A stretch of 34,527 nt of DNA from the IMG/VR virus record IMGVR_UViG_3300029702_000330. One strand, 5' to 3'. The notes below the pieces were generated by a model. That model made no database searches and was not told the origin of the DNA. It was given only the letters and a program-made list of their open reading frames with translations. How positions within the stretch are numbered: position 1 is the stretch's first letter; every line of letters starts with the position of its first letter. The position numbers and the translations under genes were made by a program. This document shows positions 29,559 to 29,945 of the stretch, one piece after another. This DNA is from a virus. Taxonomy: Duplodnaviria > Heunggongvirae > Uroviricota > Caudoviricetes.

Positions 29559-29945
29559 ATGTTTCTGAAACAGGGCACGTTTAATTATGAAAAGCAGTCC
29601 GTGGTGCTCAGTGAGCTGTCCGGGCTGCAGAGAATTGAATATCTGGCGTTTGTTCAGCAGCGAACGGCAAAGTTTGATGCCGAAGAGGGAGAACTGCCGG
29701 AGGCTGAACGACAGATTGCTTTTCTGCGGATGGGGATGGATATCAATGCCTGGCTGGTTTCCCGCTCACTGTGGAATGCGGAACAGTCTCAGGATGTTGA
29801 GACGCTTTGCGCATCCGTTATTACAACATGGTCGTATGATGCCCTGGGAGCGGGGGCGGAGATGGTTCTGTCGCTGAGCGGTATGGGAGCCATTGAGAAT
29901 GCCGGGGATTTGGAGCATGAGGTGCTGACGCCGGAAAAGTCCTGA
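29559..29945 (+). CDS. G: Tail assembly chaperone G
   Basis: 'MFLKQG...VVLSELSGLQRIEYLAFV' resembles lambda gpG; GGTGGAG RBS. Confidence 0.8.
   Translation: MFLKQGTFNYEKQSVVLSELSGLQRIEYLAFVQQRTAKFDAEEGELPEAERQIAFLRMGMDINAWLVSRSLWNAEQSQDVETLCASVITTWSYDALGAGAEMVLSLSGMGAIENAGDLEHEVLTPEKS

What the first reader, a model, noticed from the sequence alone, without database searches (positions are those of the whole stretch)
29921..29945. Programmed -1 frameshift site joining G and T tail-chaperone frames
The T frame has no start or RBS of its own and is open in the -1 frame from 29921, overlapping the final 8 codons of G, as in the conserved G/GT frameshift of lambdoid tails. The best slip candidate is GGAAAAG (29933-29939), which is not the canonical G_GGA_AAG, so the exact mechanism may differ.
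Basis: partly seen in the sequence, partly recalled or inferred. Interest (0 to 1): 0.4.

Follow-up and report, generated by a model that had tools for sequence, protein, structure and literature searches.

The report
Lambda-type G/GT tail-chaperone frameshift site
This is the well-known programmed -1 ribosomal frameshift that makes a fused G-T tail-assembly chaperone in lambda-like phages; it uses the slip sequence G_GAA_AAG instead of lambda's G_GGA_AAG, and that variant turns out to be the commoner form in this gene family and is left un-joined in every record inspected here except one.

Summary
The -1 frame opens at 29921, after a TGA at 29918-20. G ends at TGA 29943-45. GGAAAAG lies at 29933-39 as CCG GAA AAG. 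The window carries a lambda-type tail module (Z, U, V, G, T, H, M, L) from a very common E. coli prophage of the mEp460/cdtI/Ayreon type. T is most likely made only as a 241-aa G-T fusion by -1 slippage on G_GAA_AAG. In 15 diverged lineages the heptamer is invariant even at synonymous sites. The overlap shrinks to 16 nt around it. The fused protein aligns with the lambda-type GT in one stretch across the junction. ATGs exist at 29954 and 29966, and annotators use 29954, but they lack a ribosome-binding site and are not conserved. The first G is kept in at least 86 junctions against 1, which favours two-tRNA slippage with tRNA-Glu re-pairing GAA to GGA through a G:U pair. No downstream structure is conserved, and an upstream SD-like GAGGTG is only suggestive. 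G_GAA_AAG also occurs in Gifsy-1, phi80 and mEp043 and is more diverse than lambda's heptamer in the loci sampled. This is a known kind of feature, and interest is modest.

The parts
29559..29945 (+). Gene G, tail assembly chaperone (128 aa plus stop). An alternative ATG lies at 29556.
   Evidence: Pfam PF06894 Phage_TAC_2, E 2e-39. PGAP annotates the same ORF as gpG in identical E. coli loci.
29918..29920 (+). TGA stop in the -1 frame. It marks the upstream limit of where a productive -1 shift can occur.
29921..29945 (+). Overlap of the open -1 (T) frame with the end of G. The frameshift must occur inside this window.
   Evidence: In relatives the same overlap is 16-49 nt and always contains the heptamer.
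29933..29939 (+). Slip heptamer G_GAA_AAG. P-site GAA (tRNA-Glu) re-pairs to GGA and A-site AAG (tRNA-Lys) re-pairs to AAA.
   Evidence: Invariant in 15 of 15 diverged lineages, including at synonymous sites. The first G is kept in at least 86 junctions against 1.
29939..30283 (+). T segment in the -1 frame (114 codons plus TGA). The predicted GT product is join(29559..29939, 29939..30280), 241 aa.
   Evidence: Pfam PF06223 Phage_tail_T, E 5e-15. Fusion built and aligned with the 434 GT.
29919..29924 (+). SD-like GAGGTG about 8-10 nt upstream of the heptamer. A possible, unproven upstream stimulator.
   Evidence: -9.2 kcal/mol to the anti-SD, top 6.5% of equal-sized windows in its own G+T. 6 of 13 lineages fall in the top 10%. 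It is absent in L195, phi80, mEp043 and the Providencia phage.
29954..29956 (+). T-frame ATG used as the T start by PGAP, mEp460 and cdtI annotations. Judged not to be a genuine conserved start.
   Evidence: Present in 4 of 15 lineages. Gifsy-1 has CTG here. The only SD-like sequence directly abuts the ATG.
29966..29968 (+). Second T-frame ATG, encoding a conserved Met residue within T.
   Evidence: Present in 12 of 15 lineages, CGG in L108 and L197, Leu in lambda. No properly spaced SD.
30255..33320 (+). Gene H, tape measure protein, the client of G/GT. Its start overlaps the end of T by 29 nt.
   Evidence: Pfam TMP_2, TMP_4 and Tape_meas_lam_C. Strong SD GGAGGTG 5 nt upstream.
28755..29498 (+). 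Gene V, major tail tube protein with a C-terminal Big_2 domain. In lambda it is the binding partner of the T domain.
   Evidence: Pfam Phage_TTP_12 (1e-66) and Big_2. The role of T in lambda is taken from review PMC5009743.

Best explanation
A small fraction of ribosomes translating G slip back one nucleotide on G_GAA_AAG (29933-29939). This happens when tRNA-Glu occupies the P site on GAA and tRNA-Lys occupies the A site on AAG. tRNA-Lys re-pairs perfectly with AAA. tRNA-Glu re-pairs with GGA through G:C, a central G:U and A:U. Translation then continues with GTC CTG ACG ... in the T frame. It bypasses the G stop one codon downstream and yields a 241-aa G-T fusion (...EVLTPEK|VLTREMQFVMRLAREF...).

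By analogy with lambda, abundant G and rare GT coat the tape measure protein H, and the T domain recruits the tube protein V. T is not made on its own.

Shown here: the frames, the domains, conservation of the heptamer and its first G, the lack of a conserved start or ribosome-binding site for T, and continuous homology across the junction.

Inferred, not measured: the slippage itself, its efficiency, and two-tRNA rather than one-tRNA slippage.
For: (1) Z-U-V-G-T-H-M-L order with Pfam matches to every lambda counterpart.

(2) T lies in the -1 frame and overlaps G by 22 nt. The overlap narrows to 16 nt around the heptamer in L100, L099, L106 and L108.

(3) GAA and AAG are codon-invariant in 15 of 15 lineages. 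Only 3 of 25 invariant degenerate columns of G are codon-invariant, and two of them are these. The roughly 20 residues before P-E-K are hypervariable.

(4) Gene callers place the T start differently in almost every lineage. The ATG at 29954 is present in 4 of 15 lineages. Two lineages have no ATG, GTG or TTG in the corresponding stretch before codon 25 (L197 has one right at the slip site, codon 4). The anti-SD complementarity is the weakest in the module.

(5) The -1 peptide from the slip site (GKVLTREMQFVMRLAREFRRADWRRML) is collinear and ungapped with lambda-type GT (GKVFDGELSFALKLAREMGRPDWRAML). The whole fusion aligns with 434 GT as one segment, residues 1-236, E 1e-41.

(6) The first G, a synonymous third position in G, is retained in at least 86 true junctions. 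Only 1 junction has another base in an uncapped scan.

(7) Homologous positions in relatives carry the canonical G_GGA_AAG, for example CCG GGA AAG TCT TAG in L094 and L095. So this site differs from the textbook one by a single base.

(8) Literature. A_AAG is the most shift-prone tetramer in E. coli (PMC4066793). G_GA is a recognised X_XX variant (PMC5009743). GAA-to-GGA re-pairing through G:U has been proposed for phage chaperone sites (PMC10885494). The Gifsy-1 record annotates the same junction as a frameshift.
Against: There is no experimental evidence here for the GT product or its level.

The heptamer breaks the strict X_XXY_YYZ rule.

Bare tetramers give only about 0.15% shifting without a stimulator (PMC4066793), and I found no conserved downstream structure. 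So efficiency rests on an unmeasured contribution from the P-site tRNA and perhaps a weak upstream SD.

Two in-frame ATGs lie shortly after the G stop in this window. A low level of free T made by termination-reinitiation cannot be excluded.

Every deposited annotation of this clade that I inspected, except Gifsy-1, treats T as a separate gene.
Confidence: 0.85

Rival explanations
1. Single-tRNA slippage. Only tRNA-Lys slips on the tetramer A_AAG (29936-29939), as at IS1222 G_CGA_AAG. The preceding GAA acts only as a favourable 5' context and tRNA-Glu does not re-pair. The GT product would be identical.
For: A_AAG is the most shift-prone tetramer in E. coli and is productively used with non-matching 5' codons. 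Its efficiency depends on the two 5' bases NNA_AAG (PMC5009743; PMC4066793). AAG is never AAA in 15 of 15 lineages. One natural junction (L443) has A_GAA_AAG.
Against: The first G lies outside the hexamer context. It is nevertheless retained in at least 86 junctions against 1, at a site that is synonymous in G and untranslated in T. Tetramers needed a strong pseudoknot to exceed background, and no conserved downstream structure exists here.
Confidence: 0.25
2. T is an independent gene. It is translated from ATG 29954 (or 29966) by coupling or reinitiation after G terminates at 29943-45, as the RefSeq, mEp460 and cdtI annotations imply. There is no programmed frameshift.
For: An ATG lies 9 nt after the G stop. 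PGAP and several phage records annotate T from it. The Pfam T domain begins downstream of it.
Against: The ATG at 29954 is present in only 4 of 15 lineages, and Gifsy-1 has CTG there. L108 and L197 have no ATG, GTG or TTG at the corresponding positions before codon 25 (L197 has one at codon 4, on the slip site itself). No spaced SD exists. Called starts differ between lineages. T-frame homology with lambda GT extends upstream of every ATG to the slip site. Synonymous-site invariance of the heptamer is unexplained by this model.
Confidence: 0.07
3. Transcriptional slippage. RNA polymerase adds an extra A in the A4 run, giving an mRNA that encodes the same GT fusion.
For: An inserted A would give the same protein sequence. 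Transcriptional slippage is used in some bacterial and phage genes (PMC5009743).
Against: From my own knowledge, productive RNA polymerase slippage needs homopolymer runs roughly twice as long, and this run is only four A's. Selection for slippage would favour lengthening the run, yet the flanking G's (positions 1, 2 and 7) are invariant.
Confidence: 0.02

Closest known systems
Bacteriophage lambda G/GT -1 programmed frameshift (Levin, Hendrix & Casjens 1993; Xu, Hendrix & Duda 2004, 2013, 2014, as cited in PMC5009743)
   Same: The same gene pair sits between V and H. The Pfam families and the -1 direction are the same. The position at the 3' end of G is homologous, and the A-site codon AAG slipping to AAA is the same. 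The product is collinear (34% identity over 236 aa, E 1e-41). As reported for lambda, there is no conserved downstream structure.
   Different: The heptamer is G_GAA_AAG, not G_GGA_AAG. The P-site tRNA is therefore tRNA-Glu re-pairing through a central G:U, instead of tRNA-Gly re-pairing cognately. The G stop is 1 codon after the site rather than 5. T is shorter (114 aa against about 140) and carries one copy of the C-terminal GG-V-R-Y/F-G motif instead of two.
Gifsy-1 STM2596/STM2595, phi80 gp13/gp14 and mEp043 gp12/gp13
   Same: The heptamer is the identical G_GAA_AAG at the homologous place. Gifsy-1 shares CCGGAAAAGTCCTGA exactly, and its record calls T a frameshift product.
   Different: G is 56% (Gifsy-1) or about 34% (phi80, mEp043) identical. 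phi80 and mEp043 have 5 codons between the site and the stop and no upstream SD-like motif. None of these records states the slip heptamer.
E. coli dnaX -1 frameshift (A_AAA_AAG with an upstream SD and a downstream stem-loop)
   Same: The host ribosome and the tRNA-Lys AAG-to-AAA slip are the same. An SD-like GAGGTG lies about 8-10 nt upstream, close to the dnaX spacing.
   Different: No conserved downstream hairpin exists. The SD-like motif is not universal among users of this heptamer. The expected efficiency is a few percent at most, not about 50%.
Hexa- or tetranucleotide A_AAG sites (IS1222 G_CGA_AAG; Bacillus cdd A_CGA_AAG)
   Same: The P-site codon is non-canonical and is followed by A_AAG (PMC5009743).
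   Different: Those sites rely on strong 3' stimulators and do not need the first base. Here the first G is conserved and no 3' stimulator is seen.
G_GA-type heptamers of eukaryotic RNA viruses, and the actinophage chaperone site G_GGG_GAA
   Same: The first two positions are G_GA rather than XXX (PMC5009743). tRNA-Glu moving from GAA to GGA with a G:U pair has been proposed (PMC10885494).
   Different: The translation systems differ. In G_GGG_GAA the Glu codon is in the A site, whereas here it is in the P site.

Membership tests
Lambda-type G/GT tail assembly chaperone -1 PRF | Two ORFs lie between the major tail tube gene and the tape measure gene | tested here: met
   V 28755-29498, G 29559-29945, T frame 29921-30283, H 30255-33320, each with matching Pfam families.
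Lambda-type G/GT tail assembly chaperone -1 PRF | The upstream ORF is a gpG-family chaperone and the downstream ORF a gpT-family domain | tested here: met
   PF06894, E 2e-39, and PF06223, E 5e-15.
Lambda-type G/GT tail assembly chaperone -1 PRF | The downstream ORF is in the -1 frame and overlaps the 3' end of the upstream ORF | tested here: met
   The -1 frame is open from 29921 and the G stop is at 29943-45. The same holds in all 15 representative lineages.
Lambda-type G/GT tail assembly chaperone -1 PRF | A conserved shift-prone sequence in the overlap allows A-site cognate and P-site (near-)cognate re-pairing | tested here: met
   G_GAA_AAG is invariant. AAG to AAA is cognate. GAA to GGA has two Watson-Crick pairs plus G:U. 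The first G is kept in at least 86 junctions against 1.
Lambda-type G/GT tail assembly chaperone -1 PRF | Strict X_XXY_YYZ heptamer (G_GGA_AAG in lambda) | tested here: not met
   Position 3 is A, not G. Close relatives L094 and L095 have the strict form at the same place. In my judgement this is not a defining feature of the gene family, and G_GA variants are recognised.
Lambda-type G/GT tail assembly chaperone -1 PRF | The downstream ORF has no conserved independent translation start | tested here: met
   ATG 29954 is present in 4 of 15 lineages. No ATG, GTG or TTG at the corresponding positions before codon 25 in L108 and L197 (L197 has one at codon 4, on the slip site). The SD is the weakest in the module.
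Lambda-type G/GT tail assembly chaperone -1 PRF | The fused product is homologous to known GT across the junction | tested here: met
   A single BLASTP segment covers residues 1-236 against 434 GT, E 1e-41.
Lambda-type G/GT tail assembly chaperone -1 PRF | GT protein is made at a low fixed ratio to G (about 1:30 in lambda) and is required for tail assembly | not testable with these tools
   This needs western blots, mass spectrometry or genetics. The lambda values come from PMC5009743 and PMC3296357.
dnaX-type stimulated -1 PRF | An upstream SD-like element about 10 nt 5' of the slip site | tested here: inconclusive
   In the window, GAGGTG gives -9.2 kcal/mol and falls in the top 6.5% of its own G+T. 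6 of 13 lineages are in the top 10%. Fisher p is about 1e-4 only if lineages are treated as independent. The motif is absent in L195, phi80, mEp043 and the Providencia phage.
dnaX-type stimulated -1 PRF | A stable downstream stem-loop or pseudoknot 5-9 nt 3' of the slip site | tested here: not met
   The window fold gives z = -0.85. Across 13 lineages z runs from -0.8 to +0.95. The consensus fold is weak (-5.8) and inconsistent. There is no Rfam match.
Single-tRNA A_AAG (tetra/hexanucleotide) slippage, IS1222 type | An A_AAG tetramer in the zero frame | tested here: met
   GAA AAG at 29934-29939.
Single-tRNA A_AAG (tetra/hexanucleotide) slippage, IS1222 type | The base 5' of the P-site codon is free to vary, because no P-site re-pairing occurs | tested here: not met
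   One true junction has a non-G first base, against at least 86 with G under the same anchor.

The most novel reading that the evidence does not exclude
G_GAA_AAG, not lambda's textbook G_GGA_AAG, may be the prevailing and possibly ancestral slip site of lambda-type G/T genes. It would be a natural heptamer without stimulators, in which both slipping tRNAs (Glu and Lys) carry mnm5s2U34 and the P-site tRNA re-pairs through a second-position G:U. If so, the G:GT ratio in these very common enterobacterial prophages would depend doubly on the host Tus/MnmA 2-thiolation pathway. The repeated GGA/GAA interchange would then be a natural way of tuning frameshift efficiency.
Probability: 0.35. Interest if true: 0.45.

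Novelty: new member of a known kind. Interest (0 to 1): 0.3.

Why it matters
Biologically this is the expected G/GT recoding event, so it changes no concept. Three practical points follow.

First, the locus occurs in 1848 of 5426 complete E. coli genomes. Every RefSeq and phage record I inspected for this clade, apart from Gifsy-1, annotates T as a free-standing gene with an arbitrary start. So the real product (GT, 241 aa here) is missing from protein databases.

Second, predictors that demand a strict XXXYYYZ motif will miss this site. In the loci sampled it is nevertheless the more diverse form within lambda's own gene family.

Third, it offers a natural pair of sites differing by one base (G_GGA_AAG and G_GAA_AAG) in homologous contexts. 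That pair could be used to measure how much a P-site central G:U costs, and how tRNA-Glu/Lys thiolation tunes a phage assembly ratio.

Tried and rejected
(1) Downstream stimulatory structure. A single-sequence fold, per-lineage folds and a consensus fold show nothing conserved. Rejected.

(2) Known RNA families. Rfam returns only a chance lncRNA hit at E 0.89.

(3) Database proteins carrying both G and T domains (P0032, P0049). These looked like possible evidence of fusion but are internal-deletion variants. They are not evidence of frameshifting.

(4) The first viral-contig and genome-contig scans with G returned almost only 99%-identical copies. I had to query with diverged G proteins and exact-protein look-ups instead.

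(5) Literature. Searches for GGAAAAG or 'GAA AAG' together with frameshift and phage terms found no paper describing this heptamer. Xu et al. 2004 is not held. So I could not check whether they listed it.

(6) The fixed position of the G stop, one codon after the site. I considered it as a 'shifty stop' stimulator. It is not adjacent to the slip codon, phi80-type sites have 5 intervening codons, and simple purifying selection against a roughly 50-codon read-through explains it.

(7) Solved structures. No PDB sequence match to GT.

(8) My first reading of the G start (29538/29541) was an indexing error. It is corrected to 29556/29559, in the same frame.

Full report
**What is in the sequence**

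Reading 29300-30600 and listing ORFs shows a gene ending CCG GAA AAG TCC TGA, with its stop at 29943-45. The -1 frame has a TGA at 29918-20 and is then open from 29921 to a TGA at 30281-83. A script confirmed the coordinates and confirmed that GGAAAAG occupies 29933-39. My first estimate of the G start was off by 18 nt. The ATGATG is at 29556/29559, in the same frame.

Pfam assigns the surrounding genes to the lambda tail module: Minor_tail_Z, Phage_tail_U, Phage_TTP_12 plus Big_2 (V), Phage_TAC_2 (G, 2e-39), Phage_tail_T (the -1 frame, 5e-15) and three tape-measure domains (H).

The T frame contains ATGs at 29954 and 29966.

**Where it comes from and how it is annotated**

The 801-nt G-T segment is 97.6-99.6% identical to phages phi458, Ayreon, cdtI, mEp460 and others. 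It is present in 1848 of 5426 complete E. coli genomes.

PGAP annotates 'phage tail assembly chaperone G' and a separate 'phage tail assembly protein T' starting at the ATG equivalent to 29954. The mEp460 record does the same. Ayreon starts T 66 nt further downstream. None of these records joins the two frames.

The nearest diverged phage, Gifsy-1 (G 56% identical), carries the identical CCGGAAAAGTCCTGA junction. Its record describes T as 'part of bacteriophage tail assembly chaperone gpG by translational frameshifting'.

**Comparative test of the slip site**

Diverged G proteins (54-75% identical) all end in (T/S)-P-E-K-(S/P). The roughly 20 residues before that are hypervariable in sequence and length.

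I collected DNA for these lineages and reduced 193 loci to 21 representatives below 93% nucleotide identity. Fifteen of these are full-length members of this clade.

- GGAAAAG is present in all 15.
- The overlap of the two frames ranges from 16 to 49 nt and always encloses the heptamer. In four lineages it is just TCG CCG GAA AAG TCC, which leaves no other place to shift.
- Of 25 amino-acid columns of G that are invariant and codon-degenerate, 22 vary synonymously. Of the three that do not, two are the GAA and AAG of the heptamer.

**Does T have its own start?**

The ATG at 29954 occurs in 4 of 15 lineages. Gifsy-1 has CTG there and L097 has ATT. The ATG at 29966 occurs in 12 of 15 and encodes a conserved internal Met, which is Leu in lambda.

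L108 and L197 have no ATG, GTG or TTG at the corresponding positions until codon 25, inside the conserved DWRRML motif; L197's only earlier one lies at codon 4, on the slip site itself. Gene callers accordingly place the T start at a different position in almost every lineage.

In the window, the best anti-SD pairing upstream of either ATG is -4.3 kcal/mol, with spacing of 0 or 12 nt. The values for G, Z, L, H and V are -7 to -13.8 kcal/mol.

**Homology across the junction**

Translated from the heptamer, the -1 frame reads GKVLTREMQFVMRLAREFRRADWRRML. The lambda-type (phage 434) GT reads GKVFDGELSFALKLAREMGRPDWRAML at the same place, with no gaps.

The explicit fusion join(29559..29939, 29939..30280) is 241 aa. 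It aligns with 434 GT as one BLASTP segment over residues 1-236, at 34% identity and E 1e-41, running straight through TPEK|VLTREMQF against SAGK|VFDGELSF. So homology to a proven frameshift product extends upstream of every possible T start.

**Mechanism: heptamer or tetramer?**

The recoding review states several relevant points (PMC5009743):

- The minimal -1 site is Z_ZZN.
- A_AAG is the classic E. coli case.
- A_AAG is productively used with non-matching 5' codons, as in IS1222 G_CGA_AAG.
- X_XX need not be three identical bases, and 'G_GA' is listed as a known class.

Sharma et al. found bare tetramers barely above background without a stimulator (0.147% against 0.112%). A_AAG reached 5.6% only with a strong pseudoknot (PMC4066793). 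PRFect lists a 'twofour' motif among annotated chaperone shifts and proposes tRNA-Glu moving from GAA to GGA through G:U pairing (PMC10885494).

To discriminate, I asked whether the first G matters. That base is the synonymous third position of the preceding Pro/Ala/Leu codon, and it is not translated in the T frame if the shift occurs on the heptamer.

I scanned the viral collection with the heptamer anchored to the T motif L-A-R-E/D at fixed spacing. Among a row-capped 120 stretches, 87 were genuine G/T junctions with GGAAAAG. With any other first base, an uncapped scan returned 28 stretches. Only one of these (L443, GCA GAA AAG) is a real junction, against 86 under the same stricter anchor.

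This favours tandem slippage. tRNA-Lys moves from AAG to AAA. tRNA-Glu moves from GAA to GGA, forming G:C, G:U and A:U pairs.

**Stimulators**

The window's downstream region folds no better than shuffled sequence (z = -0.85). Across 13 lineages the z-scores run from -0.8 to +0.95, and the consensus structure is weak and inconsistent. Rfam finds nothing.

Upstream, GAGGTG at 29919-24 pairs with the anti-SD at -9.2 kcal/mol. It ends 8 nt before the heptamer and falls in the top 6.5% of equal-sized windows in its own G+T. 6 of 13 lineages are in the top 10%. The Fisher combined p is about 1e-4, but only if lineages are treated as independent. One lineage has none. phi80, mEp043 and a Providencia phage, which use the same heptamer, lack it as well. 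I regard this element as possible but unproven.

**Wider family**

At the homologous position the family carries these sites:

| Slip site | Where found |
|---|---|
| G_GGA_AAG (canonical) | lambda/434, an Stx2a phage, Serratia L094, Symbiopectobacterium L095 (CCG GGA AAG TCT TAG, the exact layout of this window) |
| G_GAA_AAG | this clade, Gifsy-1, phi80, mEp043 |
| G_GAA_AAG followed directly by TAG | Providencia PSTCR8lys |
| CTG GCA AAA TAG | L109-L111 |

In the capped samples, G_GAA_AAG junctions comprise 32 distinct T N-termini, against 9 for G_GGA_AAG.

A neighbour-joining tree of 35 T representatives contains 28 G_GAA_AAG and 4 G_GGA_AAG. The canonical form sits in three separate places, and lambda plus Stx2a nests inside a clade that is mostly G_GAA_AAG. 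The tree rests on 100 residues and the sampling is pattern-biased and capped. 'Repeated interchange' is therefore indicated rather than proven.

**Possible consequence**

Maynard et al. showed that lambda shifts about 4% of the time. They also showed that hypomodification of s2U34 in tRNA Lys/Glu/Gln raises frameshifting and lowers phage yield (PMC3296357). From my own knowledge, both E. coli tRNA-Glu and tRNA-Lys carry mnm5s2U34. Both slip-site tRNAs here would then be targets of that pathway, unlike lambda's P-site tRNA-Gly. This is an inference only.

**Verdict**

This is a real, conserved G/GT programmed -1 frameshift site of the known lambda kind. The slip heptamer differs from the textbook one by a single base and belongs to a recognised G_GA class. 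The main value lies in annotation and in a modest mechanistic comparison, not in a new phenomenon.

Noticed in passing
window 29519-29542: An intrinsic-terminator-like hairpin (GCCCCGGTTATCAGGGGC followed by TTTTTT) lies between V and G, just before the G ribosome-binding site. The mEp460 and Ayreon records annotate it as a terminator. It could lower G/T/H transcription relative to V.
   Followed up: partly
window 29954-30283 and loci L001, L002, L003, L193-L198: The annotated start of T is inconsistent between records and gene callers. It ranges from overlapping the G stop to 63-75 nt downstream. No inspected record of this clade joins G and T, so the GT protein is absent from the protein sets.
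   Followed up: yes
L109, L110, L111 (IMG/VR contigs, G about 40% identical): These relatives end G with CTG GCA AAA TAG. Only an A_AAA tetramer is available, and it is immediately followed by the stop, in a 'shifty stop' layout. The P-site codon GCA cannot re-pair. This is a third type of slip site in the family.
   Followed up: no
L200 (Providencia phage PSTCR8lys) and L279: G_GAA_AAG is followed directly by TAG, so the G stop abuts the slip site. Across the family the number of codons between the site and the stop falls into discrete classes of 0, 1 or 5.
   Followed up: partly
L443 (IMGVR_UViG_2648501177_000013): This is the only genuine G/T junction found with a non-G first base (GCA GAA AAG). 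It may be a functional hexamer-only site, a decaying prophage or a sequencing error.
   Followed up: no
proteins P0004, P0032, P0049: These are natural variants of this G gene. One is a stop-loss form that reads about 55 residues further in the zero frame (183 aa). Two are internal deletions that fuse G to T in frame (212-215 aa). They are probably defective prophages.
   Followed up: partly
window 30225-30283 against phage 434 T: T ends with a single G-I-S-G-G-V-R-Y-G-P-D motif, which overlaps the H start and its strong SD. Lambda-type T carries this motif twice (GLAGGVRFGPD and GIAGGVRYG).
   Followed up: no
window 25135-27078, 27162-27488, 27481-27756: The head genes upstream are of the Gifsy type. 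They comprise one ORF fusing a ClpP-family protease domain to a major capsid domain (CLP_protease 7e-36 plus Phage_capsid_4 2e-54), a cement/decoration protein (Phage_cement_2), and a Pfam 'Gifsy-2' family protein.
   Followed up: partly
L086 and L091 (genome contigs): Near-identical copies of this E. coli prophage segment (94-99% at protein level) occur in metagenome-assembled genomes labelled 'Bacillota bacterium' and 'Proteobacteria bacterium' from soil. These are probably binning contamination.
   Followed up: no
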